Origin: Sphaerodactylus townsendi
Taxonomy: Eukaryota
Length of the DNA: 64,000 nt
NCBI RefSeq assembly: GCF_021028975.2
Contig: NC_059429.1
Coordinates: 67,270,001 to 67,334,000 of the forward strand
Direction: 5' to 3'
In this document: piece by piece, positions 16,611-64,000 of the stretch
Layout of the letters: the number at the start of each line of letters is the position of its first letter
Numbering within the stretch: the first letter of the stretch is position 1
Translations under genes and position numbers: made by a program
Notes under the pieces: model-generated
The model's database searches: none
Told to the model about the DNA's origin: nothing
Seen by the model: the letters and a program-made list of their open reading frames with translations, nothing else

Positions 16611-17065
16611 GTGTTCTGGGTCGTGTTCACTAGCCCTTTGCCGGCTTACTGAACACCACCCAGACAAAGGATGTCTCCAGGCAGTAAGTAGTCAAAGGGC
16701 TAGTGAACACCATCCAGAACACCACCCACCACTCTAGGCAGTAAGCAATCAAAGGGATCAAAAGGCCAGGCTACTACAATGCAGATGCCCTCACTAATTG
16801 ATTATGCTATCTTCATAGTTACTCACATGGTAAATGGGTGGATCCCACCCAAAACATGCAAATCAAGCTTGCTAATTGCACCCTTTACACTTGTTAACAG
16901 GCAATTGGCTCTTCCTCCCACCCTGGACATTCCACAGGTATATATACTCCACTTGCTTCACTACCATCAGATCATCTAAAGATGCCAGCCACAGATGCAG
17001 GCAAAACGTCAAGAGAAAATGCTACTAGAACACGGCCATGCAGCCCGGAAACCACACAACACTCC
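16611..17065 (+). mobile_element. Penelope-like element 3' fragment with 5' inversion and a degenerate hammerhead
   Basis: Inverted repeat 16611-16650 vs 16682-16722; GATGCCAGCCACAGATGCAGGC...GGCCATGCAGCCCGGAAACC is shared with copies at 45.9, 54.1 and 62.2 kb. Confidence 0.75.
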
Positions 17066-17097: not shown

Positions 17098-17330
17098 TCG
17101 CTGCCATTTCATTTTATTTTATGATTTTACATTTTATGTTTTTATTACTATTGATTGTTTCCTGATTGCTTACTAGACCTATATGACAATCATTAAGTGC
17201 TGTACCTTATGATTCTTGACAAATGTATTTTCTTTTATGTACACTGAGAGCATATGCACCGGAGACAAATTCCTTGTGTGTCCAATCACACTTGGCCAAT
17301 AAAGATTCTATTCTATTCTATTCTATTCTA
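17098..17330 (+). mobile_element. Rex1/Babar-like LINE 3' end with (TTCTA)n tail
   Basis: Near-identical to the reverse complement of 50771-50997, the tail of an RT-bearing copy. Confidence 0.85.
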
Positions 17331-18063: not shown

Positions 18064-18177
18064 CTCTTCAATTCCAGCGATATTGTTTACTGCCAACTTT
18101 TTGAGGGAACTTTGAAGTTTTTTGTCATCTGCTGTTGCTGTTCTATGAACTACCTTCTTCTTTCTACGAGCTGTACC
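18064..18177 (-). CDS. BTF3L4: BTF3L4 coding exon 2 ([38 protein letters not shown])
   Basis: ctcag acceptor, GTAAAT donor, phase 0/0; contains the RRKKK ribosome-binding motif of NAC-beta. Confidence 0.98.
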
Positions 18178-27925: not shown

Positions 27926-28702
27926 ATGCCGCTGATCGTGCTATGTGGGCTGCCGGGGAGCGGCAAGAGCAGGCGAGCTGAAGAGCTGCGGGAAGCGCTG
28001 AGTGCCGAGAGCGGTGGCGAACGGCGGGTGTTCCTGGTGGCTGAAGTTGCGGCCGGGGAAGGCGGTGGCGGCGGCAGGGCTGCGTTGCGGGCGGAGGCCG
28101 AGCGGCTGCTGAGCCGACGGGACGTGGTGATCGTGGACGCGGGCAACGAGCTGAAGAGCTTCCGCTATGAGCTGTACTGCCTTAGCAAGCACACGGGGAC
28201 CCCGCATTGCCTCCTGCTGTGCCCCGGCGGCGCTCCCCGCCCCGACCGGCCTCCCTTGGAGGCGCCGGACTCGCGCAACCGCTGGGACTGGCCTCTCTTC
28301 ACCGCTCCCGAAGACCCCTCGGAGCCGCTGCCCCTGCCGGAGATCCGCGCCGCCCTCTTTGAGCGCCGCCCGCCGCCCCCCAACCAGTCCACGCGTTCCC
28401 AGCCCCTCCAAGCCGCTGGGTTTCTCCACCAGCTCGACCGCCTCACTCAGGACATGGTGGCCGCCCTCATGGCCGCGCAGAGGAATGGCGTAGGGCCCGG
28501 CCAGGTCATCCCATTGGCCGTCGAGGGCCTGGGCCAAGAACCTCCGGGGTTGCTGCTGAGCCGGGCTGTCAGCCTCGCCGAACTAAGCCGGCTCCGTAGA
28601 CAGTTCCTCAGCTATGCCAAGATGCATCCTGGAGAAGGAGAAGAAAATCTGCCCCAGCTGGGCAGCATGTTCGTACAGTACTTGAACAGCAACCTGCTGT
28701 GA
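27926..28702 (+). CDS. KTI12: KTI12 homolog (Elongator cofactor, PSTK-like P-loop ATPase), single exon, 258 aa, nested in TXNDC12 intron 2
   Basis: MPLIVLCGLPGSGKS P-loop, FRYELYC, EAPDSRNRWD.PLF, FLHQLD, ELSRLRRQF.SY.KMHP and MFVQYL motifs. The true ATG is at 27926; the ORF track starts 10 codons upstream at a non-ATG codon. Confidence 0.96.
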   Translation: MPLIVLCGLPGSGKSRRAEELREALSAESGGERRVFLVAEVAAGEGGGGGRAALRAEAERLLSRRDVVIVDAGNELKSFRYELYCLSKHTGTPHCLLLCPGGAPRPDRPPLEAPDSRNRWDWPLFTAPEDPSEPLPLPEIRAALFERRPPPPNQSTRSQPLQAAGFLHQLDRLTQDMVAALMAAQRNGVGPGQVIPLAVEGLGQEPPGLLLSRAVSLAELSRLRRQFLSYAKMHPGEGEENLPQLGSMFVQYLNSNLL

Positions 28703-32352: not shown

Positions 32353-32573
32353 TATTTATGAACTGAACTAGAGGAGGAAGACACACCATGTAGATTGAAT
32401 ACTTTTGCCATTGTAGGGAGACCTAGTAGGGGCTCCTACTCCACAATTCCCATTTTGATAAGATATTTTGATAAGAGATGTAATTTCAACTTAACTGGGT
32501 TCTTACTGCTGGCCTAAAACAAATAGATAAGGTTGGAAAAAATCACATTCCAGTCTGAGATATAATTCCAAGC

Positions 32574-45486: not shown

Positions 45487-45884
45487 GTAAGAGCACGAAT
45501 GGTAAGGCTGGCTTCTGCCCAACTTCGTCCAGCCAGCGGGTGGTCCCCGGCATGGCTCCTCTCTCGATCTCCCCTTTAGGATCGTGGTCCATCCTGACAA
45601 GCCCACTGGATCCTGTGCCGTTACTGCGAAGGAAAGGAGAGCTGCAGAGCGCTTGGGAGAGTGCGGGGTTTGGGAAATAAAAGGCAGCAGAAGGGTTTAT
45701 CGAAGCTCAACTTCAGTAATGATTTAGCTCGGGAAGCTCCTTCTAGTGCCGTCCTGGAACTCCTACAGAAACAAGAGCGCCTCTGAGTAATATGCAGAGG
45801 ATATTTTCCTTACCACTGACTTGTCTTGATCAACCCCTTCTCCAGATTTTTCCAGTTAAAGTTTTGGCATATTTTATTTTAGAA

Positions 45885-46121
45885 TGTGTTGTCGAAGGCT
45901 TTCATGGCCGGATTCAACTGGTTGTGGTGGGTTTTTCTGGGCTGTGTGGCTGTGGTCTGGTAGATCTTGTTCTTAACGTTTCGCCTGCATCTGTGGCTGG
46001 CATCTTCAGAGGTGTATCACAGAGAGAAGTCTGTTAGTGTACCTCTGAAGATGCCAGCCACAGATGCAGTATAGATCTGTTCCACAGGCTCGCTGTCAAG
46101 ACAAATCTGAACCACAACCAG
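45885..46121 (-). mobile_element. Penelope-like fold-back insertion with hammerhead core
   Basis: 12-bp TSD TTTATTTTAGAA (45873-84 / 46122-33); inverted partial duplication; hammerhead-like core on minus strand 45971-46013. Confidence 0.85.
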
Positions 46122-46478
46122 TTTATTTTAGAAATTGGTAATTTTTGCCTCTGAAATACGGGAGGAGGAAGAACTTGGAGAGGGTTTTTTTGGCTTTCTC
46201 CTACCTAGTACCATGCAAGGTCTAGAAATGCAAGGGTCCAGGTGAATTTCATTCAGAATCTAAAATACCAATACAGAATGGGACAGTTTCTTTTTGCTTT
46301 GTTCTAAAGGGCATTTTGAATTAAATGGGTTACATGTGTAAAAAGACCAAGCTTTCCTGTTTTAATTCAAAGGTGATGTAAAGACTCAGCAAGTTGTTAC
46401 CTCCAGTATCTTATATTAATCATCTCTCTGCAAAAGTATATACTTTCATAACAAATGGGAAAACATAATGAATTATGT

Positions 46479-46575
46479 ATTGTCGAAGGCTTTCATGGCC
46501 GGATTCAACTGGTTCTGGTGGGTTTTCCAGGCTGTGTGACCAGACCACAGCCACACAGCCCAGAAAACCCACCAG
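46479..46575 (-). mobile_element. Very short Penelope-like fold-back insertion lacking the hammerhead core
   Basis: Direct flanks AACATAATGAATTATGT (46462-78 / 46576-92); same terminus TTGTCGAAGGCTTTCATGGCCGGATTCAACTGG as 45889; internal inverted repeat. Confidence 0.85.
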
Positions 46576-49002
46576 AACATAATGAATTATGTTTACTTTT
46601 AATTTAGAGTATGGTCCTTTGCTTTGCTTTATACAGTTATTCTATTAAAATGTACACCAGAAGTGCTAATTGTGAAGATATTTGCTGATTCTTGAATTTT
46701 CTACGTGAACGAATCAACTGGTTTAATTTTTGAAAACGCAAATTATTTTAATACTCTGTCTTCATTATTTTGAATGGGACTTTTGATTTTGGCTGATCTG
46801 TGGTATATTGGACAGTAGCTCATAATGTGTAGACTTTAACTTTGTGTGAAATAAATAAGGGTTTTGTGTGTTGCATAATAGGAAATAATGAATGGAAAGA
46901 GCAAGATATGCTAGAGAGAGCATTGTGTGGGTATGCTAAACATTAATGCAGCACTAATGTTGAACGATGTTTCCACATGAAGCGATTGTAGATATTATGG
47001 AGCATCATAGGATTACTATACTAATTTTTTTAAGAATAACAAGTTACTTGGAACTGGGAAGACTGTTTTGGGAAGCCACTGGGTCCTGAAATGAAGGACA
47101 AATTTGAACTGACTGTCAGTGATCAGTTGGCAGTCAGTGATCATGATTTAATATGCTTCTCTGAATACACAGATATACACTGAATTCTCAGATAGTAGCC
47201 ACCCAGAATTGCCCACTTTAATCAATAAAATAAAGGATAACTGGCAAGCTTTGTGAATAGGTTCTATTACTATTGCACCAAAGCAGCTTTTGCAAAATGC
47301 AGAAACTAAATTTACAGCCAGGAAATCCAGGTTACAGTTTCAGAATATATTATAATGAAAAATGATGCAAATGAGACAGATTTGTTGGTTAGGTACTATG
47401 CTAAGCAAGCAACTGATTTGCATGTATACAATGAGGATTTCGTTGTAGGGGCTGAGCAGTGAGAGAACAGGGACACAGTGAGCAATAGAAGCCTTGGAGC
47501 ATTTCAAATATAGAGGCACTTCTGACGGGGAGGGGAATAATGGAGGAGCATTGACCTGGGTCAATAACAACCACTGAGCTCCAGATTAGTCTGGTAATGT
47601 TCTGTAGACAAAAATTCATTCTGATTCTTTGGACATTGACAAATTTTTCCTAGAGGCCATAAATGCAATATAAATGCATGTTTTAAAAATCTTTGGTAAG
47701 AGAAACCAAGCTTTACTGGTAGACAAATTGTTTTTAGAGTTGAAAGAAAGATGATTTGAAGGAGCACAGTTTGTTTTAGCTTTTCTTCAGATTTTAACCC
47801 TTATTTTGTAATATGTTGACTGATTTTCCCATAATTTCCTGTAAAGTGTGATAGACTAAGAAACAGACAAAATGATAACAATGGACTGTTGATATTTCAA
47901 TCTTTTGTTGGGCTTCTTATTTTGTTTTCATTAATAATCCATTTTAAGGTAGTTTGAAATACATAAACATTCAGCCCAACCCAATCTGTCTCATCTGCTA
48001 AAATCTTGTTGTGTATAAAATCATCAGCATATCAGCTTTGCATCAAACGATCTCTCAGTGCACACACTTAAAAGTAACAGTACTTCGAATACTTCTCAGT
48101 AAAGTATTTCTATGATGAATTATCGCAGTGATGGATTTTGCCATTATTAATTACGAAATATAACAGGCTTCCTGTTCTACAGCATACTTAAAGGCACCAG
48201 CTTTAAAGTCTAGATACACCCCCTCAAATTTAAAACTGTTTATAATCAGAGCATTTCGTAGCACCACACAACTTGTATTTCAACTGCATTGATTAAAAAC
48301 ATATACCATCAGCAGACTATGGGATCAGAAAATACCTTGTTTTCAGAATTGCTTATATGTTTGTGACAGATGTGAAACATTGACATTGATACAGTTGGAA
48401 AGAGGGCAGCTGCTGAAAGTTTATTCTTTCCGCCTCTCTTTTCTGATGCTCCAGAACAAGAACTGCAGAGATTTGGTTGAGGTTGGAGCATTGCCATACT
48501 GGAGAGCAAGACAGCAAGGGTGGGTTATAAACAGTTACTGAGACTGAAGTCTATTTAGGCACCTTGTGCCGTGTAACTCATGTTCTGGTGAACAGCACTA
48601 TTACTACATGTCTCTCCTCAGTAACTGATTTTTAATATCAATCTTCAATACAAATTCATTAATCTTATGGATGTACAGGCATCTGATGAAGAGTTATGAT
48701 TCATTGAAACCTACTCTGGAATAAATGTTGGTCACCAAAATTGCCACTGGATGCCTGCTTACAGGTCTGTTTACCCCCTTACTCCAAAAGTAGTGTATGA
48801 GTTTTCCCCTTATGTTCTGTCCATTTTCATTTGCCTATATCTTAGCTTCCACAGGGGACTCGGCAATAGATTGTTTAAAATGCATTTGATAATGCATATG
48901 TCACCTTTCCGCCATTGTTTTGAAAATGGTTTACAATTCAAAAGAATGCCTTTAACATACAACACCTAATAAAGAAAAGGATAGAAAATGAAGAAGATAG
49001 CA

Positions 49003-49141
49003 AATTTGGGTACTAATTGTACAACAAGAACACAATTGTACAATTTGGGTACTAATTGTACAACAATTAGGTACAAATTGTACAATTTGGGTACTAATTG
49101 TACAACAAGAACACAATTGTACAACAAGAACACAATTGTAC
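49003..49141. repeat. Irregular tandem repeat (~39-bp unit, about 3.5 copies) abutting a CR1 tail
   Basis: AATTTGGGTACTAATTGTACAACAAGAACACAATTGTAC repeated with variants. Confidence 0.9.
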
Positions 49142-50605
49142 ATAACAACACAAGAAGAGCCCTACTGCATCAGACTAGTGGTCCATCTAGTCCAGCAACC
49201 TGTCTACATAGTCCCCCTAGATGTCTGACAGAAGGGTACAGAGGCCAAAACCTTTCCCAGATCTTTCCTTCTGGCATTGGGATTCAGAGATTGTCTTAAT
49301 GTAGGGGTTCCCTTTAGCCACTGTGGTCAGTAGACACTGTTAGATCTATCCTCCATGAATCTATGTAATCTCCTCTTAAAGCTGTCTGTGGCCACAATTC
49401 CATCTTCTGGCAGTGAATTCTGCCATTTTAATCACTCTCTGTGTAAAGTATATATTTATTTATTTATTTTATTAAACTTTTATACCACCCCATCCCCGAA
49501 GTGCTCTGGGCGGTGCACAACATATAAAATACAATATAAAATGATAATATATAAAAGCAGCGATAAAAATTTCCAAGTCTTAGTCCAATTTTAAAAATTC
49601 AAAATTTGAATTTAAATTTGAGTGTGAGGTGGCATCCAGCAATCCAATAACATAAAGTCCCTCTATATGACTCTACTGCTCAATAGCTTCACTGAACGCC
49701 CTCAAGTTCTAGTATTTTTGGAGAGGGAAAAATGATATTTTTGTCAATTCTCTCCACCAGGTGCATAGTTTTATAAACCTCGATCATGTCCACTCCTAAT
49801 CACCTGCTTTCTAAATTAAAAAGTCCCAGACTCTTCAGCCTTTCCTCATGGGGAAGGTACTCCAACCCCCAATCATCTTGGTTGTCTTTTTCTATACTTT
49901 TTTCAGGTCTACAGTGTCCTTTTGCTTAGAACTGTGAACAGTATTCCAAATGAGGCTTCCTCATAGATTTATACACAGGCATTATAATATTGGCTGTTTC
50001 ATTTTCAATCCCTTCCCTAACTGTCTCCAACACAGAGTGTGCATTTTTCACCACTGCAGCACGCTGGGTTAACGCTTTCATTGAGCTACCTGCTATGACC
50101 CTAAGATATTTTTTCCAGTCAATCTCAGCAAATTCAGGCCCCTCCTCGACCAGTACACGAAGTTAGGGGTGTTCCAATGTGCTTCACCTTACACTGAATG
50201 TCTCCTGCTTTGTTGTTGCCCACTCACTCAACATGTCCAGGAGCTCTTCACAGTCAGACTTAGTTTTCATCTTCCTGAATAATTTGGCATCATCTGCAAA
50301 CTTGATCATTACATTGCTCATCCCTAGTTACAGATTAGTCATGAACAAAATTAAAGTCCCAGCCTCCATACCAATCTTTGTGGGGCCCCACTGATGACAT
50401 CACTCCATTGAGAGAACAATCCATTTATTCTTACTTTTTGCTTCCTGTCATTAATGAATGTTTGATCCATGAGAGAACCCATCCTCTTATCCCACGAGGT
50501 ACCTTGTGAAAACCCTTTTGAAAGTTCAAGTATATGATGCCTACTGTGTCACTATTGTCTAGATGTTCACTTTCTTAAAGAACTCCAAAATGTTGGTGAA
50601 GCAGT
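49141..50605 (-). mobile_element. Decayed CR1 LINE (RT and 3' end), interrupted by an L2-like tail at about 49450-49670
   Basis: Reverse-complement similarity to the CR1 at 62.7-64 kb (e.g. GCATCATCTGCAAACTT = KFADD; CAGTATTCCAAATGAGG = PHLEYC). Confidence 0.75.
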
Positions 50606-50769
50606 TATAATTTATAACTGATAACGAAATGGGACAGCTGCTTCGAGGCATAGTTTGGGGAGGGGTGGAGGCAAATGGTAGTGTGGTTGGTCCTATCCAG
50701 GCCCATGGAGTGAGCATCACTTTTCCCTCTGATGTATTCAGTAAAATAGTTGCTAGTAGATGCAGTTTG

Positions 50770-53028
50770 GAATAGAATAGAATAGAATAGAATCTTTATT
50801 GGCCAAGTGTGATTGGACACACAAGGAATTTGTCTCCGGTGCATATGCTCTCAGTGTACATAAAAGAAAATACATTTGTCAAGAATCATAAGGTACAGCA
50901 CTTAATGATTGTCATATAGGACTAGTAAGCAATCAGGAAACAATCAATAGTAATAAAAACATAAAATGTAAAATCATAAAATAAAATGAAATGTCAGCAC
51001 AGGCTATAGTCATACAGTCATAATTGGGAGGAGATGGGTAATAGGAATGATGAAAAAAGTAGTGCAGTAATTATATAATAAATATATAATAAATAGTTTG
51101 ACATTATCGAGGGAATTATTTGTTTAACAGAGTGATGGCATTCGGGAAAAAACTGTTCTTATGTCTAGTTGTCTTGGTGTTTTGGCAGTGCTGTGTAGCG
51201 GCGTTTAGGAGTAAGAAGTTGAAACAGTTTATGTCCAGGATCACGAGGGTCAGTAAATATTTTTCACAGCCCTTTTTGACCCGTGCAGTATACTGAGGTC
51301 CTCCAATGGAAGGCAGGTTAGCAGCAATTGTTTTTCTGCAGTTCCTGATTATTCTCTGAAGTCTGTGTCGATCTTGTTGGATTTGCAGAACCAAACCACA
51401 CAGTTACAGAGGTTACTTGAATGGCTGAATCCAATGATTCCTCTGTAGAACTGTATCTTGTAGCATCCTTGGGCAGTTTGGAAGCACCTGAGTTGTAGCA
51501 AGAACAGTGCTGTTGTATTAGCTTTTGGCAATGACATTTTCTTTGATATTAGGTGTCCATTTTTAGGTCATGAGATATGATTGGGCCTAGAAATTTAAAG
51601 GTCTCTACTGTGTTGATACTGTGTTGTCTAGTATTGTGAGGAGGAGGGTAGGATGGGAGGAGTTTCTCCTGAAATCTACCACCATTTTCTCTGAGTTTAA
51701 GTGTGTTCAGTTCTAGATTGTTCCAGTGGCACCACGAGGCTAGTTGTTCAACCTCCCGTCTGTATCACGGTTTCATGGAATTTGTCTCGAATGAGACCAA
51801 TCACTGTTAATATCATCTGCAAATTTCAGTATTTTTTAACAGATGGATGGATTTTGAATGCAGTGGTTGGTATACAGAGAAGAGAAGTGGTGTAAGTCTT
51901 ACACAGCCAGGGGCCCTGTGCTCATTTACAAGTGTCTGATACCTTAATTTTTCACAACTTCACCTGCTTGTTTCCTATCTGTTAGGAAGCTTGTGATCCC
52001 CACTTACAAATATGCTCAAGGTACTGCTAGCTGGTTTAGTTTGGTTAGAAAGAACCATAGAGTCTGATAGTATTGAATGCTGAACTAAAGTCAACAAAGA
52101 GGACCCTTGCATAGGTCTTTGGCTGATTCAAAGATGCTGCTTGGATATAGTGCAAAGCCATATTAACAGCATCATCTGTCGATCTATTTACTTTCGGTAT
52201 GCAAATTGCAAGGGGTCCAACAGTGGATCCATTGATGGTTTTCAAATGGTACATCACTAGCCTTTCAAAAGTTTTCACTTAACTACAGATGTTTAGAGCA
52301 ACTGGTCTTAGCCAGTGGATGCGTTCAGTTCCTTGATGGAAGCTTCTTGGCACTGGGAGACTGATAGTGGAAGGTGTTTGAAACGAAGGAAGGAACATAA
52401 CACATCTCTATTGATTTGTTAAAGATTTGGGTGAAAGATAGAGAGGCCCAGTGGACAGCTTCAGACTTTTAGGCAAGAAGGTGTTGCTTGTCTGGAGCCT
52501 GGTGCTTTTCCAGGCTTCTGTCTGTGAAATAGATCTTGCACTTCCTTTTCTGAGATCACCAGGGATTCACCAAACCAATAGAAATGGAGTTCAGTTGTAG
52601 GAAGTTTGGCTATTGTTGAGTGCATCTGAGATAGGGTTGTGGAGAAAGGTGACTGTAGATTGTTTTCAAACCTACAGTAGGAACCGTTCAGGTCGTCTGC
52701 CAATTACTGATTTCCTTCAGCTTGGGAAGATGGTTTACTGTAACCCGGTGATATTTTGAGAGTTTTCCACATGTTTGCTGTTTCGTTTTGGTGAAAACTG
52801 ATTTTTTAGCTTTTCAGAGTAGTTTCTTTTTTGCTGCTCTGATCTCGCTTTGTTAATACATTTCTGGCCTGATTGTACAGCATTCTATCACCCGCTTTCA
52901 CCTGTAGGCCTCTTCTTTGGAGATGGCCTTAACTGCTTAGGATTTAGCTGTGAACCAAGGTTTGTTGTTACTATATATACGCAAGTTCCTGGTTGGTATA
53001 CAAAGGTCTTCACAGAAGCTGACATAGG
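50770..53028 (-). mobile_element. 5'-truncated Rex1/Babar-like LINE
   Basis: Frameshifted RT peptides MKTFERLV, NRSTDDAVNMALH, YARVLFVDFSSAFNTI, KPGKAPG, TTRHKNSFFP; AATAAA + (TTCTA)n tail. Confidence 0.85.
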
Positions 53029-54053
53029 AGCCTAAGGATGAGCATCAGAGAAGAACCTGGAGAGAGCCTGTGTTGCTTGGTGCGGGGTGGAGAAAGGCTG
53101 GAAAAACTATGTGCCAGTATCTCAGTTTGTATAACTGGAAGCAGTTAGATCAAAACAAACAAACAAAAAACAGAAGTTATATTATGGGCTAGACATGAAG
53201 ACCCTGGGTATGGGTATGGCTTTGGGCTTCTAGTTCATTATCCCTATTGTGTTCCATACATGATTCCACAAAAGGCAATTAGGAGACATGTTGACTGGCT
53301 GAGATGCAAGGCTGAGTTGGCTGAGCAGCAGAAACAAGGCATCCTGCCACATCCTTTGGATCCCTGAGTGAGATGATGTTTTGTCATTAAAGATCTTCCC
53401 ATAGGCTTTGGCAATATTGGTATCCTTTGTCATTCCAGACAAAATATCTTTGCATTTTTATTGAATTAAGTTAGTCCCAAAGCATCAGAAATGCAAATTA
53501 GTCTGATAGGGCTGACAGTGGTGACCTTCCACCAAGGCAGCTTGTTGTGCAATAGCTTCCATCATGTCTTTTATGAATAACCAAGGGTAGATTCAAATGT
53601 GCAGAAAGAGCATATGGTACAGTGCTTCCTGGAATGTACTTCTGCAGACTGTGGGTGAGGGTCACATGTTGAAATATTTGGCCATGTTTGAGGAGGAAAA
53701 ATAGCTTTCTGTTTGCAGGATGCTAGCATATCAGGGATTGACCTAAGCTGAAACCTTCTTGCAAGGCTAGTGTCTTTGTAGTTAAGGAGTTAATTATGAA
53801 ATATGCAGTTCCATGCTGTTTGCTGTTTGTGCAAAGCCAGAATGCATCTAGAATTCATAATTAGCACAAAAAAACTGTGGACATCTGCCATGTATGATTA
53901 GGTAAATTATATTGTCAGATTTGGGTTCAGAAAACATCTGCCTGGGCTTGGACAAAGTCATGGCTAAGACCGAATAAGAAATTTTGGTTGGGAAAGCATT
54001 TTTGCTCACACTTACAATCTTTTGCCTTCAAGAAGTAATTTATAATACAGACT

Positions 54054-54262
54054 TGGGTGCTGTGTGGTTTCCGGGCTGTATGGCCGTGTTCTAGCAGCAT
54101 TCTCTCCTGACGTTTCGCCTGCATCTGTGGCTGGCATCTTCAGAGGATCATTCTTCAGATCCTCTGAAGATGCCAGGCACAGATGCAGGCGAAATCTGCC
54201 ATTCTGTTCTAGCATCTGAAACAGCTCTACCTGTGATTCGACACGATGAAAGCCTTCGACAA
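54054..54262. mobile_element. Penelope-like fold-back insertion with two head-to-head hammerhead cores
   Basis: 13-bp TSD TATAATACAGACT (54041-53 / 54263-75); inverted duplication centred at about 54153. Confidence 0.88.
54105..54147 (-). ncRNA. Minimal type I hammerhead ribozyme, consensus-intact
   Basis: UCCU-CUGAAGA-U-GCC(a)GC-cacagau-GC(a)GGC-GAAA-C-GUC^-AGGA: helix I UCCU/AGGA, helix II GCC/GGC, palindromic ACGU helix III, GUC cleavage triplet. Confidence 0.8.
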
Positions 54263-55788
54263 TATAATACAGACTGTAAATGGCAACTAATCCAATTTTG
54301 TAATCAAGTTTGTCTAGTAAACCTAACAAAGCTGGAAGTCCTCTCTATTTCAAAATGCTCTGGATCTGTAATAAATTCCAAAGATTTTGGTTTTTTAAAT
54401 AAATACAATAATCTTTTCTTGCTTATAAGAAACTCCCTGTTCCTCTAATTCTAGGCATATAGACAAAACTTTGTCAATACTTGACAAAACTTGTCGAGCG
54501 TATAGACAAAACTTGTCAAAACTATTAAAGAATCTATTCAGAGTGTATGTAGAACCCGCATTTTCATTGGGTGTTCTATACCAGAACCAAACTGCATTCA
54601 AAGAATCCTTCTAATTAATAAAACCCGACACAGCTGGTTGCATAGCTTGTGCATGTGTGTGTTTCGACATTCATTGCACACAACGGTTTTTCGAGATGGC
54701 CAGTAGATGGTGTGTATTTAGACACTCACTGCACACAACAGTTTTTTGAGATGATTGTAAGGAACAGGTTTTTTTCATATTAGGTTAACCAAATTCCCCT
54801 AGGTGTGAGGATGGAGCATAATACTTGGATGCTGGCACTTTGCAGCCAAAGTGAAGTGTTGAAAAAGATAATTCCTTCAGTAAAGAAGGACGATCTCAAG
54901 GAAATCAAAACCCTTGAAGCATGTCAGTCTCTTTAGTATGGCTGCTGAGACCTTGGTTGATTCCCCAAGGTCAATTTATTATGTGATACTCAAACGAAAA
55001 AACATGGCTTAAGCAAGAACTCCCCACCGCTTAAGTGCCCAACACGGATTCATCCAGGTTCTGGCACGCGTTCCCCCCATCCTGCATTTTTTCAGAACTT
55101 GCATTGAAGTGCACCTTTTTTCCAATCACGCTCCGAAGCTGGATCAGTGGGGAGAAACAGGAGACAGACGTGGCTTATTGTTTCCGCCCTTCAAACCTTC
55201 AGCCAATCAGAGCGCAGAGCGCAGCCTTTTTTTGTTTGCTGGGCATGGCTATGAAGGAACATAAATACAAAACTACAAAACAATGATTTTGATAAATTGT
55301 TTATGCGTGGCTACATTCAAACATAGAAACAAGAAGAAGAATAACATGAATTTTCATTCATGGATGGAGTAGTGTTCCCGCTCCAGCACAATAGCCAATC
55401 AGAAGGTGGGGAAATTCTGCCTATGCATCTACGTAGTGAAATAGCTGCATGAAAAAAAGTGTTTTAAAAAGTTCCCACCTCAAAACAACAGCCAATCAGG
55501 ACGAGGAACAACAGATCCGCCGAGCAAATCATGTGTTCGTGGGGAGTGTTACATTGTTTGAAACTGCGATAGACATCAAGGTCTTCACTAGACACCTGCT
55601 ACAGTGGGGAGGGAGAAACCGTGATGAAAAAGGTGCTATTTCTTTTGGAACTGGGATGTATCTGGCTTAATTTCTCAGTAGGGATTCTACCCTTGATGAC
55701 TGTTTCCTGCATAACTCTGCAGAAACTTCCACATTCTGCAAAAGTATTCCAAGAAGGCAAAATCCTGAGGTCATATAACAGAAGCAGT

Positions 55789-55899
55789 GGGTTGGATCCA
55801 AAGAGGCCCTTCTTATGAAAGGAGTCTTCCATTGATGTAAGAATTTCTTCTATAAATAGAAGATTCCTGTGAGCAGAAGGGCCTCTTTGGATCCAACCC
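55789..55899. mobile_element. 111-bp hairpin MITE
   Basis: Perfect 25-bp TIR GGGTTGGATCCAAAGAGGCCCTTCT / AGAAGGGCCTCTTTGGATCCAACCC. Confidence 0.8.
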
Positions 55900-56741
55900 T
55901 TGGGAAGAGCGTGAAACAGTGAGTCTCACCAATTATATCCTGACATATATAATGTACATTATGTACTAATTCACATGCTAGTTTGGAGCCTTCCTTTATG
56001 CAGAATTTTTTTTCTATACATACATGTATAAACAGCAATCGAGTCAGGTATGTTGTGAGTGATAGGAGAGAATTCACAAGCATACCCAGTTGTTTGCGTG
56101 TGTTGTAGTGGGATTCATGTATATGTCAATCATCATCGATTTGTTAGCAAGCGTTGCTTGTATAAGTAAATATAAATGAGGCATAAGTGGGATTTATTTA
56201 TGGATTTCATTCCTGGCTTTTTTCAGCTCTGACCTTACTACCACTTGCCTTGCTTTTGTGTGATTAGGGTGATGTCGACTGCAGAAGTGCTGTATTTGTT
56301 TGGTTGAAGGAAAATATGTTGACACACTGGATACTGCATCCTCAGTCTAATTTGTTTTTATCATTTGCCCTCTTGTACAAAAATGTTGGATGTCAAATGT
56401 ATTTTATGACTCACTGATGTACCACAGAACATTCTGAGCAGTAGTTTATTTCTCAGCTCATTTCCCAAGCTAGAATAAATGTTCCCTTAAGCAATCCCTA
56501 TGTGCTTGTTATTAGGGGACTAGTTTGTGTGCTGAATCCTTAACAGGTGGGTCTCATAAGTTTATGCAAGACAGGCTCAACACTCACAGTTGCTGATCTC
56601 AAACACATATTCACCCAGATGTTGCCCATCATATAATTTTAATTACACTTTATCCTGCCTTCCTGTGGATGCATTTGTTGCCACACTTGAAGCTATTGAG
56701 GGCAATGCACATGGTTCCTCCTGTCCCCCAATATTTGGTCA

Positions 56742-57004
56742 NNNNNNNNNNNNNNNNNNNNNNNNNNNNNNNNNNNNNNNNNNNNNNNNNNNNNNNNNNN
56801 NNNNNNNNNNNNNNNNNNNNNNNNNNNNNNNNNNNNNNNNNNNNNNNNNNNNNNNNNNNNNNNNNNNNNNNNNNNNNNNNNNNNNNNNNNNNNNNNNNNN
56901 NNNNNNNNNNNNNNNNNNNNNNNNNNNNNNNNNNNNNNNNNNNNNNNNNNNNNNNNNNNNNNNNNNNNNNNNNNNNNNNNNNNNNNNNNNNNNNNNNNNN
57001 NNNN
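56742..57004. other. Assembly gap (N run), followed by a reverse SINE fragment 57005-57120
   Basis: 263 N. Confidence 1.
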
Positions 57005-57142
57005 CTCATTGCAACCTTGTGAGGTAGGTTAGGCAGAGAGAGAAAGAGAGAGAGAGAATAGTCCAAAGTTATCCAGTGATCTTCATGACTGAGGGTGATT
57101 TGAACCTAAGTTTCTCCATTCTGTTTTCCCCAACTTGGACAG

Positions 57143-57711
57143 CTCTCACTTCCTGTTTGTGCAGGTCACATCTGCCATCTTCTGTTACTTCAGGCTTCTC
57201 TGTGCTGCCCACCCTTTGCAGAAGGTTCCCATGAACCTTTGCTCTACTTGCAGCTCATCCACCTGCCATTTTCGTTTTTGAAGCACATGAATTTTGAAGC
57301 ACATGAATTTTCACTGCTGATTCTGTGCACTTGTAGTTTTTCCTTCTTTTTTCAATGTATCTTTATAACTTCCAAGATACCCCATTGGGAACAAAGGAAA
57401 AATAACACATCTGGGGAATCAGCAGTGAAAATTAACTTTATTCATGTACTTTACAGAACGAAATGGCAGCTTCAAAGACACCCATCATAGCTTCAAATAC
57501 ACCTCATTGAGGAAAAAAGGAAAAACAACACGTGCAGAATTGGCTGTGAAAACTAACTTTATTCATGTACTTTACAAATGGAAATGGTGGGCAGATAAGC
57601 TGCAAGCAGAGCAAATATTTTTGGGAACCTTTTGCAAATGGTGGGTGGCATGGAGAAGCCTGAAGTGGCAGAAAATGGTGGGTGTGAGCTGCACAAACAG
57701 AAAGTGAGAAC
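57143..57711. repeat. Long imperfect palindrome (old fold-back MITE)
   Basis: CTCACTTCCTGTTTGTGCAG...ACTTCAGGCTTCTC...TTTGCAGAAGGTTCCC mirrored by GGGAACCTTTTGCAAA...GAGAAGCCTGAAGT...CTGCACAAACAGAAAGTGAG. Confidence 0.75.
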
Positions 57712-58189
57712 TGGGGGTGGGGTGAAGCATTCCCCTGGAATGATTTTTTCCCCACACTATGCAGACAAAAAAACCAAAGCGGTTCTTTTTAAAAATTTGC
57801 AAGACATTTTATTTGTGTTGTGTGGAATGGACCCTAGTCTAACATTCCACAACATTTGGGGGAACAGAAGCATACTGATGACACCCCAGCCTGAAGCTCC
57901 TGGCTAGATGGGTGAGGGTTTCACATATAGCACATCAAAGGGTGTAATGGTGAGACTCTCTTCCCTAGCGACATGCTCAGTCCCCTGCCTTGGAGGAATG
58001 AGACCATTCACTGAAGGACTGTCCCCTGAACTCCAGTATTAGCAAGAGGTAGGTCAAAAGATTGTGTTCACTTTGTCAAATGCTGCTGATAAATTAAGTA
58101 ACATCAGCAGCACTCACCCACCTTGATCCAACTGAGTATGGAGATCATCTGTGAGGGCAACTAGCACAGACTCCACCTGTGGCTGGGCC

Positions 58190-59570
58190 AGATCAGATCA
58201 GACTACTGTCACTTGTTCTACACAGGGCTGCCCTTGAAGTTGCTCCAGAAACTCCATCTGGTCCACAATGTGGCAGAGTGAATTCTTATAGATACTTGAA
58301 GAGTGCATAATCAACCAGTGCTCCACCAGCTGCACTGGCTCTAGGCTGAGTATTGGATCAGGTTCAAAGTTTTGGTTTTTACCTTCAAAGCTCTCAATGA
58401 TTTGGGACCCTTGAATCTATGGGACTGCCTTTCTTGATACATCTGCCAGAGAGTGTTCAATAGAAACAAACTCCCAGAACTGTCAAGCTGTCCTCAGGCA
58501 GAGCCAGAGCTTCTTCAGCCATGGCCCAGCCTGGTAAAACTCTCTGTTAGGTGAGACTCAGGTCCTGCAGGACCTTGTTCAGTTTGCAGGGCCTATAAGA
58601 CAGAGATGTTCTGCCAGGGTTGCAATGACTTCCATACCAGCTCATCTCCCTTCCCCTTTCCCCTCTCTTTTTCTTTGCTTTCCACTGTTAAATTTTTGCT
58701 TAACCCTTTTTGTCTCTAAACCTTCCTACTGGCATCTCTACCCAAACCAAAGTTACCCAGCAGTGTTATGGCTTCCTCTTTAAAGCATTCACATAACTAT
58801 CCTGGCTGATAAAATCATGCAAGAATCACATTAGTGACTCTTCAGGGCATGTTCCCTCAACCATTCAAAGAGGCAATTATTTGTCCATTACTTAAAAAAC
58901 CATCCCAACAGAAAAATAATGTGACCAATTATCACTCAGTCTCCAATCTATGCTTTCTGAGCAATGTGATTTAAGGAGCAGTATCAAATCAACTCCAGAT
59001 CTTTATGGATAACCCATCTGTTCTAGAACCATTCTTGCTTCAGGCCAAGCTGTTGGACAGAAAAAACTTTGCTAGCTTTCGTTGTCAACCTTCATCTGAG
59101 TGTAGTCAAAAGCCAAGAGTCCCTGTTGCTATTTTGAATTTATCTGCAGCCTTCAATACAAGATCATCCCATCTTGCTGAGGCACCTGGAGGCAGAAGTA
59201 GGTATCAGGGGAGGTTCAAATAGTTTCTCAAGTATTTCTCAAAGGTTTTCAGAGGGAAGCCAGAGACCTATTTTGTGGGGTTCCACAGGGTGCAAGTCTA
59301 TCCACAGTGCTTTTCAATCTCTGTGTAAAGCCTTCAGGATAAATTATTCATTGCTTTGGAGTTGGCTGTCATCAATATACTGATGATATTCAGCTGTATA
59401 TATCCTATCCAAACCTCCTGATGATCCAATAGAGGTCCTGAATTGCTGTGTGCCTGTGGTGCTTAATGGGCTAAAAGTGAACAAGTAAACCCTGAAGAGT
59501 AAACCTGAAGTGAACCCTGAAGAGACAAAGGTAATGCTGGTTGGGGAGGAGGACGTCTTGAAGGACATTG

Positions 59571-59640
<70 letters not shown>

Positions 59641-59950
59641 ATTTATTGGACTTTTTAACCGCCCTCCCCCTAGGTGCTCAGGGCAGTGAACAACAGTAAT
59701 AAAACATACGTTAAAAACAGTAAAAAAACAAGTCAATATAATCAATAAAAACCAGAACCATAAAGTGCAGATGAGGTATTCCTTTCCCCTCCCCACCCTC
59801 GTACCCATGGGAGGCCAGATGTAATGGTAGATGTAATTAACCAGGCTGGCCAAATGCCTGGTGGAACAGGTCCGTCTTGCAGGCCCTGTGGAAGCTCTGC
59901 AAGTCCCCTGATCTCCTTTGGGAGCCTGTTCCACCAGGTGGGGACATGGC
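58190..59950. mobile_element. Cluster of decayed L2-like LINE fragments (58190-58630 +, 58850-59570 +, 59640-59950 -)
   Basis: Remnant peptides such as LHWL...RFKVLV.TFKAL, LSAAFNT, CHQY.DD.QLY and LKVN; reversed tail TTTATTTATT...ACCGCCCT. Confidence 0.6.
59575..59638. repeat. (CT)n microsatellite
   Basis: About 32 uninterrupted CT units. Confidence 0.98.
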
Positions 59951-62143
59951 CCACCCACTCTAGCGGAGGGAGGGGAGGGGTGGCATGCAAGGGAGGAGAG
60001 GGAGGGGCCCCGGCATCGGGACATGGCCCACCCACCCTAGCAGAGGGAGGGGGAGAGGAGGGATTGAGGGGTGGCATGCAAGGGAGGGGCGGGAGGAGTA
60101 TATACTCTGAATATGGAAGCAGAAGCTGTGGTCTCATGACCTTTATATGACCATAAATGTATAGGACCATTGGAGTTATTTGTGTCTTAATTCTGTGCAC
60201 TGGTTGTGGGTAACTTACAATGAACTGTTTTACTGTGAGGGTGCTTTATCTGCTATTCAACCTCTCACAGTAGAGTTTAGCATCTGGTGTAAGGTCCCTT
60301 TTAAGGTTATAACCTCACAATGAAGATCTATTGATTCTGGCACATGGCATGAGTACAGGTATGAAACATGTGTAACATATACATGCATATACTTTGCATT
60401 GCAAAACATCCTATGGATGCACAAACACTAATGAGCTATGTTTTATTATTTCAGTTGAATTTACATCTATGTACTTATATACTCTAGAGCAAAGAACTGT
60501 TTCCACTCTCTAACTTTAGTTTAAACATTTATGGTTCCAACCATGTTATGCTTCCATGCATCTATGATGCTTTTTGTACAGTTGGTTGGTAGCATTATTA
60601 CCTTATTAAATAGTCCTGTTCTTTGTTTACATTGTTATATTACTACTGTTATGGATTATTGGTTTTATGATTAGGTTACTAAAAGGGCATAGTGCTTTTT
60701 CCTAAGGAAAAATATACAGGCAAAGAACCTTGCCCTAACCATTTAGAGTCAAACTGACAGAGTAAATGGGGAAAGGCTATATTGTCAAGAACTAATGAAT
60801 TTTGCCTTGGGGAATGGTACAAGGAACAAATTGAGAATAAGTGCCAGAATTAAATTGGTTAGGTAATTGGCAGGATCGTTTTTAATAGCAAACATTATTC
60901 TCAGTCACACTGAGGTTTCTCAGATTAGTCTCCTGTAAGTCATTTTGACTGTACTTAAGATCTCTACGACCAAAACTACTGTGGAGAAAAATTCTTTCTC
61001 TTTGTATCAACTTGACCAGAAGAGTTGTATAATTTAATCTTAGGCCCTTTATGCATGCAGAATCCACCCCAAGGCTGTTTGCTCTGTAGTGGGATTTTCC
61101 AGTGTTTTTTCGTTTACACAGTATTCTTGCTGAGCTGTGCCACCATTTTCTCACTCCCCCCTTCCCACGCTTCTTTGTTGTTTCTGCAACTTCCATTTTT
61201 TTCTGGATTTGGAAACCTTGCAGAGAATCTGATCTGAAGCATGGTGAGTTCTGAAATGTATAACAATCTAACTGATGCTCTTAAGATACCTATGCTTTTG
61301 AACAACATGGATCCCACAGTGTGTGAGAATGTAGCAAAATTTCTGCTAACAATAATAGACGTAAGTCTAGATGAATACCAACCAATGTCTATGTATTATG
61401 ACCACATATAGCCAGCAGTAATTTTTCTAGCTTCTGTCAGTATCCGATGACGTTTAAGTGAGTTAACTTAGCTGAAGGAATGTCCTATAGTTACAGAAGG
61501 ACCATGTATATATTTTAGTATTTAGTATTTTAGTACCAGTGTCTATAATTGTGAGCAATAATGGGCAAATTTTGTATGCTGATTTTGTATGTTTATTTTA
61601 TGCCAATAAAGGCTTGTGACTGAGTTCTGAAATGTGCATAACTGAGAATCTAACCTGAAAGGAATGTATGCTGAACTCGAAGGAGACCACGAGTGCGTAA
61701 ACGGCCTTAGAGAACTTTGCAAAACATAACAATAGAACCATTTTGGTGCTTGACTTATAAGATGTGACAGAATCTCCCCTCACTGAAAGTGTCACAAGGA
61801 AAGTTTCTCCTCCACCCAGGGTTCTCACTTAAGTAGACATATGTCATTTTAGTCACTGTTCAGGAAATTATACAACACTTAACACAATCTGGAAGCCAAG
61901 TGGCTCCATCTAATCTTGGTACAGTGAAGGTTCCCCTCTTTGTAAAATGTTAAGACAATTCTAGTAAATTCTAATGATGAAACCTCCCCACCCAACCATA
62001 CAAGCACCTAATGTAGGCAGATTGATTATCTCTAAAATGTGCTCAATATTCATAACCAGTCTTAGAATGAATGTGGTATACCATTATTAACTAAAAACAG
62101 CACACTCTGTTTCTAAGGTAGTTTATCTGGAAATTATAGTATT

Positions 62144-62308
62144 GGGGTGTTGTGGAGTTTCCAGGCTGTGTGGCCAGAGGATCCTCTGAAGATGCCAGCC
62201 ACAGATGCAGGTGAAACGTCAGGAGAAACTGCTACTGGAACACGGCCATACAGTCCGGAAACCCTACAGCTTCCCGGTGATTCCAGCCGTGAAAGCCTTC
62301 GACAATAC
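62144..62308 (+). mobile_element. Penelope-like insertion with 5' inversion and hammerhead core
   Basis: 12-bp TSD AATTATAGTATT (62132-43 / 62309-20); 62144-75 is an inverted copy of 62244-75; terminus GAAAGCCTTCGACAATAC. Confidence 0.88.
62182..62224 (+). ncRNA. Minimal type I hammerhead ribozyme, core intact with a G-U pair closing helix II
   Basis: TCCT-CTGAAGA(62186-92)-T-GCC...GGT-GAAA(62213-16)-CGTC^AGGA; predicted cleavage after 62220. Confidence 0.7.
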
Positions 62309-62704
62309 AATTATAGTATTTTTTAAAACACGTATACATCACTGCTAAATCTAGGAATAAGGAGCCAACTTTGTCTATATAAATGTCTTTTCAGAGAACA
62401 ACTGTGCTCAAACAGGTTTTCATTTAGAGAAAACAATGCATTGTTGTATCCACTTACTGAGTCCAACAAAAAAAGTACTGAGCTGGCACTTGGTCTATTC
62501 GACTTCTGCATTTGCTAGCAATATGTTTAATTCTCAGCCCTGTCAAATCTGTGAATATTTAAATCCAGAGACTGGAGGCATGAATAGAAAAGGCAATGCT
62601 ATGTACTGTTCTGGTCACCACATCTCAAAAAACAAAAAAGGCAAAGCTGGAAAAAGTACTGAAGAGGGTAACCAAGATGATTGCAAGATGGTTGGAGCAT
62701 GTTG

Positions 62705-64000
62705 CCTATCCCACGGTATTAAAAGAACTGGCAGAAGTCCTCTGAGAACCACTTGCTATAATCTTTGAGAACTCCTGGAGAACAGGAGAACTCCCAATGG
62801 AGGGCTAATGTTATCCCCATTTTCAAAAAGGGGAAAAATGAGGACCCTAATAATTAATGTCCAGTCAGCCTGACATCAATACCAGGGAATATTCTGGAGC
62901 AGATCATTAGACAGACAGTCTGCCAGCACTTGGAAGGGAATACTGTGATCACAAAAAGTCAGCATGGGTTTCTGAAAAACAAGTCATGCCAGACCAATCG
63001 TATCTCTTTTTTTGATAAAGTGACAAGCTTGGTAGACTAAGGGAATGCTGTGGACGTAGCATACCTGGATTTTAGTAAAGTTTTTGACAAGGTGCTCCAT
63101 AATATTCTCGCAAGTAAACTAGTGAAATGTGGACTAGACAATGCTACTATTAGATGGATTTCTAATTGGTTGTCTGATCGAACTCAAAGGGTGCTAATTA
63201 ATGGCTCATCTTCATCCTGGAAAGAAGTGACTAGTGGGGTGCCACAGGGTTCTGTCCTGGGCCCAATGCTATTCAATATTTTTATCAACGACTTGGATAA
63301 TGGAATAGAGGGCATGCTAATAAAATTTGCAGATGACACCAAATTAGGAGGGGTAGCTAATACCCCAGAGGACAGAGTCAGAATTCAAAATGACCTAGAC
63401 AGATTAGACAGCTGGGCCAAAACAAACAAAATGAGTTTCAACAGAGATAAATTTAAGATACTACACTTAGGCAGAAAAAATGAAATGCACAGATATAGGA
63501 TAGGTGACACCTGGCTTGACAACACTACATGCAAAAGGGATCTGGGAGTCTTAGTTGACCATAAACTAAATATGAGTCAGCAGCGTGATGCGGTGGCCAA
63601 GAAAGCCGATGCGATTCTGGGTTGTATCAATAGAAGTATAGTGTCAAGATCGAGGGATGTAATTGTACCTCTCTATTCTGCATTGGTTAAACCTCACCTG
63701 GAATAATGTGTACAGTTCTGGACACCACAGTTCAGGAGGGATATAGACCGGTTGGAGTGGGTCCAGAGGAGGGCAACCAAAATGGTAAAGGGTCTGGAGT
63801 CTCTACAAAGAGAGGCTTAGGGAGCTGGGGATGTTTAGTCTGGAGAAGTGTAGGTTAAGGGGTGACATGATAGCCATGTTTAAATATTTGAAGGGATGTC
63901 ATGTCGAAGAGGGAGCAAGCTTGTTTTCTGCTGCCTCAGAGACTAGGACACGGAGTAATGGATTCAAGGTGAAGGAAAAGAGATTCCACCTAAACATTAG
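62705..64000 (+). mobile_element. CR1 LINE ORF2 (RT), 5'-truncated, runs off the window edge
   Basis: ORF 63050..63706 with YLDFSK.FDKV, SGVPQGSVLGP.LFNIFINDL, KFADDTKL, RDLGVLVD, LYSALVKPHLE; in-frame stops on both sides. Confidence 0.95.

What the first reader, a model, noticed from the sequence alone, without database searches (positions are those of the whole stretch)
45885..62308. Recurrent architecture: four independent 97-237 bp insertions, each with long TSDs and a fold-back; three invert just upstream of the ribozyme
Seen: the insertions at 45885-46121, 46479-46575, 54054-54262 and 62144-62308 share the terminus ...GAAAGCCTTCGACAA(T/C)A. Each has its own AT-rich 12-17 bp direct flank and contains an inverted partial copy of itself. 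In three of them the inversion junction is within about 5-30 nt 5' of CTGAAGA. Two subfamilies are visible (GUC/AGGAG type and GUU/AAGAAC type). Inference: a stereotyped mechanism such as fold-back or template-switch priming on a short, possibly ribozyme-processed RNA yields a retrozyme/SINE-like class of ORF-less elements mobilised by a Penelope RT/GIY-YIG protein.
Basis: partly seen in the sequence, partly recalled or inferred. Interest (0 to 1): 0.7.

Follow-up and report, generated by a model that had tools for sequence, protein, structure and literature searches.

The report
Mirrored stubs of Penelope retrotransposons
These four short hairpin-shaped inserts are real, but they are front-end stubs of a very abundant, known kind of jumping gene (Penelope/Poseidon), likely made when both cut DNA strands copy the same RNA until its predicted start, rather than a new ribozyme-based element.

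Summary
Observation confirmed: four inserts with exact 12-17 bp flank duplications and inverted partial copies. A contig from another organism lacks one insert plus one flank copy exactly. The inserts are 5'-end fragments (hammerhead motif, first ~39 codons, 'tail') of Poseidon-type Penelope-like retrotransposons. The genome has 16,145 exact termini and an intact 819-aa RT/GIY-YIG copy with the same ends. The inverted-pLTR-plus-tail layout is published (PMC8557442, PMC3846280).

Across 234 copies, one arm ends at the tail end (+118 from the ATG) and the other at the tail start (~+84). Inner ends pile up about 30 nt downstream of each family's TATA-like box (-12 in family A, about -45 in B; replicated on held-out copies). 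Only 7 of 395 lie at the ribozyme cut. So 'just upstream of the ribozyme' most likely marks the RNA 5' end.

Best mechanism (inferred): both target strands prime on one RNA at two start sites, run off its 5' end, and are end-joined. The retrozyme/SINE reading is not supported. No RNA data were available. Earlier scan notes reached the same reading on other DNA of this genome and in sharks.

The parts
45873..45884 (.). Insert 1 target-site duplication, left copy (12 bp)
   Evidence: exact match to 46122-46133
45885..46036 (-). Insert 1 forward arm, family B, element positions -33 to +118 (hammerhead motif, ATG at 46003, tail)
   Evidence: 95% to family B reference
46041..46069 (+). Insert 1 inner piece of inverted arm (-10 to +19)
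   Evidence: 100% match
46070..46110 (.). Insert 1 unmatched 41-nt filler replacing the middle of the inverted arm; origin unexplained
   Evidence: no hit to either family reference
46111..46121 (+). Insert 1 outer piece of inverted arm, ending at about +84 (tail-less end)
   Evidence: sequence read directly; TSD placed at this outer end
46122..46133 (.). Insert 1 target-site duplication, right copy
46462..46478 (.). Insert 2 target-site duplication, left copy (17 bp; last 3 nt also match the element end)
46479..46541 (-). Insert 2 forward arm, family B, +53 to +118; no ribozyme motif
   Evidence: 94%
46539..46575 (+). Insert 2 inverted arm, +43 to about +80; 3-nt overlap at the joint
46576..46592 (.). 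Insert 2 target-site duplication, right copy
54041..54053 (.). Insert 3 target-site duplication, left copy (13 bp)
   Evidence: empty site in run X5 skips 54041-54262
54054..54149 (-). Insert 3 inverted arm, family A, +84 to -12, with a complete minimal hammerhead motif (CTGAAGA at 54137-54143)
   Evidence: 100% to family A reference
54155..54262 (+). Insert 3 forward arm: -15 to +25, then a scrambled 52 nt (54195-54246), then the tail end +99 to +116
54263..54275 (.). Insert 3 target-site duplication, right copy
62132..62143 (.). Insert 4 target-site duplication, left copy (12 bp)
62144..62179 (-). Insert 4 inverted arm: about +84 to +53, then 4 nt completing a GATC-centred palindrome at -12
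   Evidence: joint crossed by an X2 contig with no differences
62180..62308 (+). Insert 4 forward arm, family A, -12 to +117; hammerhead core 62186-62220 (predicted cut after 62220), ATG at 62192
   Evidence: 90%; motif by homology to PAc
62309..62320 (.). Insert 4 target-site duplication, right copy
16750..17062 (+). Fifth copy outside the finding: tail-less arm from about -236 to +81/83, including the TATA-like box; no TSD found

Best explanation
The inserts are head-to-head 5'-end fragments of two Poseidon-type Penelope-like retrotransposon families, likely made when the element's protein makes a staggered cut and primes reverse transcription from both target strands on the same RNA. Shown: identity with the autonomous element's 5' end, the TSDs, one outer end at the tail end (+118), the other at the tail start (~+84), and family-specific inner-end clusters. 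Inferred steps: (1) the GIY-YIG domain nicks the two strands about 12-14 nt apart, giving the TSD; (2) one 3'-OH primes at +118 and the other at ~+84, matching the two start sites that flank the tail in PAc; (3) these sites lie only ~130 and ~100 nt from the mRNA's predicted start, so both cDNAs usually run off that 5' end (about -12 in family A, about -45 in B, each ~30 nt downstream of a TATA-like box); (4) the two cDNA ends are joined by microhomology (often the self-complementary GATC at -12) or with short fillers. The ribozyme is a passenger in most copies. The stubs are predicted to be dead on arrival.
For: Autonomous link: L151 has an intact 819-aa ORF starting at the ATG in CTGAAG|ATG, with the same tail-less inverted arm (RVT_1 E=1e-12). 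A family-B arm is contiguous with a homologous ORF end, 69% over 204 aa (L327). Positions +1..+118 are about 84% identical to PAc (99/118, counted by eye). Layout: an inverted arm with an outer end at +76..+120 in 68/96, 42/60 and 60/79 copies of three sets; a TSD at that outer end in 50/96, 26/60 and 51/79 (null 1.0% of 3,650). The first base after the TSD is +82..+86 in 38/51 held-out copies. A tail on both arms in only 3 of 136. Genome-wide, 21,415 arms reach +84 and 9,529 go on into the tail. Inner ends: A 53/111 at -17..-7 vs 8 at -52..-38; B 4/154 vs 40 (windows chosen after looking). Held-out: A 42/93 vs 1; B 2/39 vs 11; p=6e-9. TATA-like boxes at -43 (A) and -75/-73 (B). Uninverted, TSD-flanked family A copies also stop at -11..-15 in 5 of 9. 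Direct-orientation re-entries start at -10..-19 in 11 of 24. So the cluster does not need the palindrome. The forward arm is the tail only (+79..+90) in 13/175 copies vs 3 in each neighbouring 12-nt bin (p=0.005; two are near-duplicates), as expected if a second primer sits at +84 on the same RNA. Arms share subfamily variants (B +79: 53 of 60 concordant; A +36, +43, +78 p<=5e-5). PAc cleaves and extends both strands, starts at two internal sites flanking the tail, and inserts without ribozyme cleavage (PMC11167929).
Against: No RNA 5' end was observed; the start site is predicted from motif spacing (recalled ~30-nt rule) and from copy ends. D. virilis Penelope has a TATA-less promoter and a 5'-UTR intron (PMC2377424), and the family A cluster sits at a polypyrimidine-CAG that resembles a splice acceptor. 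Both clusters also contain short self-complementary words that could bias joints or alignment ends. Off-cluster inner ends of the two arms are not significantly correlated (10 of 40 within 8 nt vs 6.7 by permutation, p=0.10). 7 of 60 family B pairs disagree at +79 against 0.8% background for that change, so some inserts used two templates or were later converted. In most copies both arms cover the same RNA stretch, which needs one cDNA to displace the other (not shown). PAc showed no strand preference for its start sites in vitro, whereas the genomic pairing is strongly one of each. The numeric position of PAc's upstream start site was only in a figure I could not see. Pfam did not call the GIY-YIG domain; it is read from the motif in the translation.
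Confidence: 0.68

Rival explanations
1. Fold-back: one cDNA primed at +118 snaps back at a short palindrome, copies itself, and the endonuclease then cuts the second arm at ~+84. This is close to the published ideas of self-priming and endonuclease-mediated resolution.
For: 1,278 perfect GATC-centred palindromic joints genome-wide. Arms mostly share variants. Arkhipova 2013 read junction palindromes as self-priming (PMC3846280 Discussion); Craig 2021 ascribe the tail to EN-mediated resolution (PMC8557442 passages).
Against: The inverted arm reaches more than 10 nt further upstream than the forward arm in 57 of 133 vs 24 the reverse (p=3e-4), sometimes by hundreds of nt (L252 -758 vs -17); a fold-back cannot give this without later deletion. 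Tail-only forward arms peak at +79..+90. Most joints carry overlaps or fillers rather than clean loops (63 overlap, 6 blunt, 67 insertion of 136).
Confidence: 0.15
2. Both strands prime as in the best explanation, but on two separate RNA molecules held by a protein dimer.
For: The arms overlap fully in most copies without needing displacement; 7 of 60 discordant pairs at B +79; no significant correlation of off-cluster ends; PAc is predicted to dimerise.
Against: Strong one-of-each pairing of the two start sites (3 of 136 double-tailed) and the tail-only peak; high arm concordance; no cross-family hybrid stood out among held-out adjacent inverted arms (own-family score higher in all but one short, weak arm). 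Co-expression of one source locus could still give concordance.
Confidence: 0.1
3. One reading: a self-propagating retrozyme/SINE-like class templated on a short ribozyme-processed or circular RNA.
For: Very high copy number; a small excess of ends near the cut site; a rare head-to-tail array of 182-nt hammerhead-bearing units exists (L146); animal retrozymes are proposed to derive from pLTRs (10.64898/2026.07.22.740005).
Against: The four window inserts are head-to-head, not tandem. Inner and outer ends vary copy by copy rather than being inherited as a unit. 7 of 395 inner ends at the cut; most copies extend about 40-75 nt upstream of it. One window insert lacks the ribozyme. The sequence is the autonomous element's own coding start.
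Confidence: 0.04
4. The mechanism is as in the best explanation, but the inner-end cluster marks a splice acceptor or an RT-stalling hairpin rather than the transcription start.
Against: No shared upstream exon precedes -11 in 86 family A arms. None of the 4 UTR deletions found in family A has GT-AG ends. 27/204 (A) and 18/191 (B) ends read through the cluster with unspliced sequence. Family B was not scanned for spliced forms.
Confidence: 0.1

Closest known systems
PAc, Poseidon from Anolis carolinensis (Frangieh et al. 2024, PMC11167929)
   Same: About 84% identical over +1..+118 (by eye); ORF starts at hammerhead stem II; cut site 26 nt after the start codon; element end at +111-118; tail between two RT start sites; AT-rich targets; ORF of similar length.
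   Different: Another species and two further families. The paper's text that I read does not tie the two start sites to opposite target strands, to the inverted copy, or to run-off at the RNA start.
Inverted-pLTR-plus-tail insertion units of endonuclease-bearing Penelope-like elements (Pen2a_Av, PMC3846280; Fig. 2 legend of PMC8557442; D. virilis Penelope, PMC2377424)
   Same: An inverted 5'-truncated copy adjacent at the 5' end, a 30-40 nt tail at one end only, palindromic joints, TSDs around the whole unit (8-10 bp in Adineta).
   Different: Here most units are only the two short arms (median 224 bp; 105 of 126 TSD-bounded units <=300 bp) and TSDs are longer (median 13). The published explanation is self-priming or EN resolution.
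Non-LTR retrozymes (PMC7229834; 10.64898/2026.07.22.740005)
   Same: Type I hammerhead motif, pLTR-related, no complete ORF; one locus here (L146) is a small tandem array of the kind.
   Different: Retrozymes are head-to-tail repeats that yield circular RNAs; the window inserts are dispersed head-to-head units with one-off joints.
LINE-1 twin priming (recalled from Ostertag and Kazazian 2001; not read here)
   Same: Both target strands prime on the RNA, giving a 5'-inverted segment between TSDs and joints with microhomology.
   Different: In L1 the second priming site is variable and the two segments barely overlap; here the second site is fixed (~+84) and the arms overlap, giving a palindrome.

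Membership tests
Endonuclease-bearing Penelope-like elements, Penelope/Poseidon clade | Single ORF with RT and C-terminal GIY-YIG, contiguous with these ends | tested here: met
   819-aa ORF in L151; RVT_1; GIY-YIG motif seen in the translation but not called by Pfam; family B link via L327
Endonuclease-bearing Penelope-like elements, Penelope/Poseidon clade | pLTR overlapping the ORF start, with minimal hammerhead and 30-40 nt tail | tested here: met
   motif and tail +85..+118 collinear with PAc; Rfam gave no hammerhead hit at E<=1
Endonuclease-bearing Penelope-like elements, Penelope/Poseidon clade | 5' truncation, inverted adjacent copy, tail at one end, partial tandems, TSDs | tested here: met
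Endonuclease-bearing Penelope-like elements, Penelope/Poseidon clade | Placement in the Poseidon clade by RT phylogeny | not tested
   assigned by nucleotide likeness to PAc only; no tree built
Endonuclease-bearing Penelope-like elements, Penelope/Poseidon clade | Ribozyme cleavage and TPRT activity | not testable with these tools
   shown for PAc in PMC11167929; local folds here were not better than shuffles
Non-LTR retrozymes | Head-to-tail tandem units each with a type I hammerhead | tested here: not met
   window inserts are head-to-head and single; L146 elsewhere in the genome is tandem
Non-LTR retrozymes | Unit-length linear or circular RNAs | not testable with these tools
   no RNA holder listed
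SINE-like non-autonomous family | One fixed unit copied as a whole from master copies | tested here: not met
   inner ends and fillers differ between copies; the recurrent GATC joint is explained by position, though no phylogeny of those 1,278 copies was run

The most novel reading that the evidence does not exclude
These copies record the whole unexplained Penelope insertion cycle. One RNA is primed at two dedicated sites from opposite target strands; the RT runs off the RNA 5' end as a strong-stop-like cDNA; it then either is joined head-to-head (inverted pLTR with one-sided tail) or jumps back onto the same RNA and copies it again, which would create the partial tandems (pLTRs) and seed retrozyme-like arrays. 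Support for the jump: 23 read-through loci re-enter a direct copy, 13 repeat the same 5' end within 6 nt, 6 of them away from the main cluster against 1.0 expected (0 of 20,000 permutations); L146 repeats -12..+170 three and a half times.
Probability: 0.45. Interest if true: 0.58.

Novelty: new member of a known kind. Interest (0 to 1): 0.3.

Why it matters
As an object it is ordinary: debris of a known retrotransposon group in a layout already drawn in reviews. Its value is as a natural experiment. How Penelope-like elements form their tandem/inverted ends and one-sided tail is called undefined in PMC8557442, and the one in vitro study (PMC11167929) stopped at first-strand initiation. Two co-resident families whose joints shift with their own TATA-like boxes give testable predictions: which strand uses which start site, where the RNA starts, and whether the RT re-enters the same RNA. 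Practically, such palindromes can be mistaken for MITEs, microRNA hairpins or retrozymes.

Tried and rejected
RNA evidence: no RNA holder listed; all runs were contigs, so starts, ends and circles could not be examined. Rfam: no hammerhead family at E<=1, only 7 weak microRNA-hairpin matches. Folding of four stretches gave z-scores of 0.61, 1.26, -0.28 and -1.11, so the ribozyme is assigned by homology. PDB: only distant RTs.

A C-to-T difference between arms seen in the first 30 loci was dropped: those loci were chosen by a query bearing T, and in the unselected sets 0 pairs shared it and 4 of 60 had it on one arm. These loci (set Q, 21 parsed) were left out of all breakpoint counts. An apparent inverted-arm-only A-to-G excess at B +59 (9 vs 0) weakened to 10 vs 3 with more copies; not pursued. 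Correlation of off-cluster inner ends was not significant. An extra cap-derived G was looked for by eye and cannot be told from the genomic G at -12. Splicing as the cause of the family A cluster was not supported. The automated TSD search missed insert 4, so TSD fractions are lower bounds.

Rows dropped: 3 of 99 (two tandem repeats in L080, one double count in L081), one more near-duplicate (L210), 11 of 90 duplicates, and L150.

Literature searches found no paper that ties the inverted copy to two-strand priming or to transcription-start run-off; subscription journals are mostly not covered. Figures and legends S1-S2 of PMC11167929 were not seen (0 hits in 3 supplement texts) and may bear on this.
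Full report
1. Observation. The four inserts exist as described. Their exact direct flanks are 12, 17, 13 and 12 bp, each present only twice in the window; chance gave 1 in 200,000. The shared 15-mer terminus occurs four times in the window, and each insert matches itself on the opposite strand. A contig of run X5, from another organism, passes from 54040 to 54263 without a break, lacking the 209-nt insert and one 13-nt flank. Contigs of runs X2, X3, X5 and X6 enter insert 4 from both flanks, and an X2 contig crosses its inversion joint unchanged. X2 may be the source sample, and only contigs were available.

2. What it is. The window lies in a 1.8-Gb genome (G000:C5) with 16,145 exact copies of the terminal 18-mer and none of the reversed control. 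Locus L151 carries an intact 819-aa ORF whose ATG is the one in CTGAAG|ATG of the inserts, preceded by the same tail-less inverted arm. It has an RT domain and a GIY-YIG motif visible in the translation. The RT region has at least 147 matches in the genome. A second family (3,250 exact tail matches) is contiguous with a homologous ORF end. With that A as +1, the inserts comprise a minimal hammerhead motif (predicted cut at +29/+30), the first ~39 codons and a tail (+85..+118). This stretch is about 84% identical, by eye, to PAc of Anolis carolinensis (PMC11167929; parts 1-3 of 4 of the text read). The layout, an inverted 5'-truncated copy plus a 30-40 nt tail at one end and palindromic joints, is the typical one for these elements (PMC8557442 passages; PMC3846280 passages and Discussion; PMC8969392 passages; PMC2377424 passages).

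3. Anatomy across copies. I parsed 96 exact-terminus hits from the first 7.5 Mb of contig C1, 60 family B hits, and 79 held-out hits chosen by two flank letters. An inverted arm with its outer end at +76..+120 was found in 68, 42 and 60, and a TSD at that outer end in 50, 26 and 51; a TSD at the forward arm's own 5' end in 6, 3 and 4 (null 1.0%). Over 234 copies, 126 TSD-bounded units have median length 224 bp and median TSD 13 bp, 65% A+T. The inverted arm begins at about +84; a tail on both arms occurred in 3 of 136. Genome-wide, 9,529 of 21,415 family A arms reaching +84 continue into the tail, close to one tailed arm per tail-less arm.

4. Why the joints lie upstream of the ribozyme. Inner ends cluster at -17..-7 in family A (53/111) and -52..-38 in family B (40/154), with 8 and 4 in the other family's window. 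The same windows, fixed beforehand, held on the held-out set (42/93 and 11/39 vs 1 and 2; p=6e-9). The offset of about 30 nt equals the offset of their TATA-like boxes (-43 and -75/-73), each about 30 nt upstream of the cluster (spacing rule recalled). A ribozyme-anchored cause would give one position in both families, at +29/+30: 7 of 395 ends lie there, with a modest excess at +27..+33 (23 of 129, about 12 expected). Uninverted TSD-flanked family A copies stop at -11..-15 in 5 of 9, and direct re-entries start at -10..-19 in 11 of 24, so the cluster does not depend on the palindrome. I infer it is the RNA 5' end. No RNA data could test this. A splice acceptor is a weaker alternative for family A.

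5. Mechanism. PAc nicks and extends both strands, starts internally at two sites flanking the tail, and does not need ribozyme cleavage. The genomic pairing here is one end at +118 and the other at ~+84 on opposite strands. The inverted arm goes further upstream than the forward arm in 57 of 133 copies and the reverse in 24, which a fold-back of the forward cDNA does not predict. In 13 of 175 the forward arm is the tail alone, as if blocked by a second primer at +84. Arms mostly share subfamily variants (53 of 60 at B +79), but 7 do not, and off-cluster inner ends are not significantly correlated (p=0.10); these two results keep a two-RNA variant alive. Joints show overlaps in 63, blunt ends in 6 and fillers in 67 of 136, resembling microhomology-mediated end joining (recalled); 1,278 joints are perfect palindromes on GATC. 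Steps shown: ends, TSDs, clusters. Steps inferred: staggered nicking, strand-to-site assignment, run-off, end joining.

6. Beyond the finding. Only 81 copies match a 37-mer that reads past the tail into the ORF. Of 42 such loci examined, 24 stop at +151..+1206 and restart as a direct copy. After dropping one near-duplicate, 13 of 23 repeat the same 5' end within 6 nt, 6 of them off the main cluster against 1.0 expected. L146 repeats -12..+170 head to tail three and a half times. This suggests the RT can leave the RNA 5' end and re-enter the same RNA downstream, a route to partial tandems and retrozyme-like arrays. The 2026 preprint (10.64898/2026.07.22.740005, parts 1-3 of 5 read) gives 176 bp as the mean reptile retrozyme unit; PMC7229834 (passages) defines these as tandem repeats giving circular RNAs. 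The window's inserts do not meet that definition.

7. Verdict. Real, abundant, and a new member of a known kind. I found no paper stating the two-strand, two-site, run-off model, but earlier unreviewed notes of this scan state it for other DNA of this genome and for sharks. My reading was noted before I saw them, and they are not independent support. Interest 0.3; 0.58 if the full cycle, including template re-entry, is confirmed.

Noticed in passing
window 16750-17062: Fifth copy of the family, tail-less (about -236 to +81/83), with the upstream TATA-like box; no TSD found.
   Followed up: partly
window 50761-53026: Run X5 contig 21 also skips this 2.27-kb stretch, so it is another insertion absent in that organism; high repeat depth.
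   Followed up: no
L146:1390-2035 (G000:C4:158576340 region): Head-to-tail array of 182-nt units (-12..+170), each with the hammerhead motif, behind a double-tailed inverted arm; a retrozyme-like tandem. +170 is close to the 172-nt minimal RNA reported for PAc.
   Followed up: partly
L126, L135, L146, L167 and 7 of 86 family A arms: A non-genomic T or AT often stands just 5' of GATCC at the -12 end, in both direct and inverted joints; possibly non-templated addition by the RT. Unexplained.
   Followed up: partly
L011, L016, L047, L150: Long runs of a G-rich 16-mer repeat abut element ends; may be assembly artefacts at palindromes.
   Followed up: no
L151: about 3500-3700 and 6400-6650: The intact copy lacks its 3' pLTR and is flanked by a duplication of more than 200 nt of host DNA instead of a short TSD.
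   Followed up: no
L050, L112, L263 (element -104 to about -48): A family A subfamily lacks about 55 nt of the 3' UTR; the ends are not GT-AG.
   Followed up: partly
window 27896-28702: Intronless 268-aa ORF that looks like a KTI12 homolog (name recalled from the P-loop and C-terminal motifs; not searched).
   Followed up: no
window 32531-33898 and 63041-63706: LINE-like ORF fragments: an endonuclease-type N-terminus and a CR1-like RT piece (recalled motifs; not searched).
   Followed up: no
window about 18060-18200 (- strand): Exon-like frame resembling BTF3/NAC-beta (recalled; not searched).
   Followed up: no
window 17100-17328 and 50770-50998: Two 229-bp copies, 99% identical, in opposite orientation 33 kb apart: a very young repeat of another family.
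   Followed up: no
element +50..+101 (L151:3787-3916 fold): A hairpin pairs +50..+66 with +92..+101; the upstream start site (~+84) falls in its loop side and the downstream one just 3' of it.
   Followed up: partly
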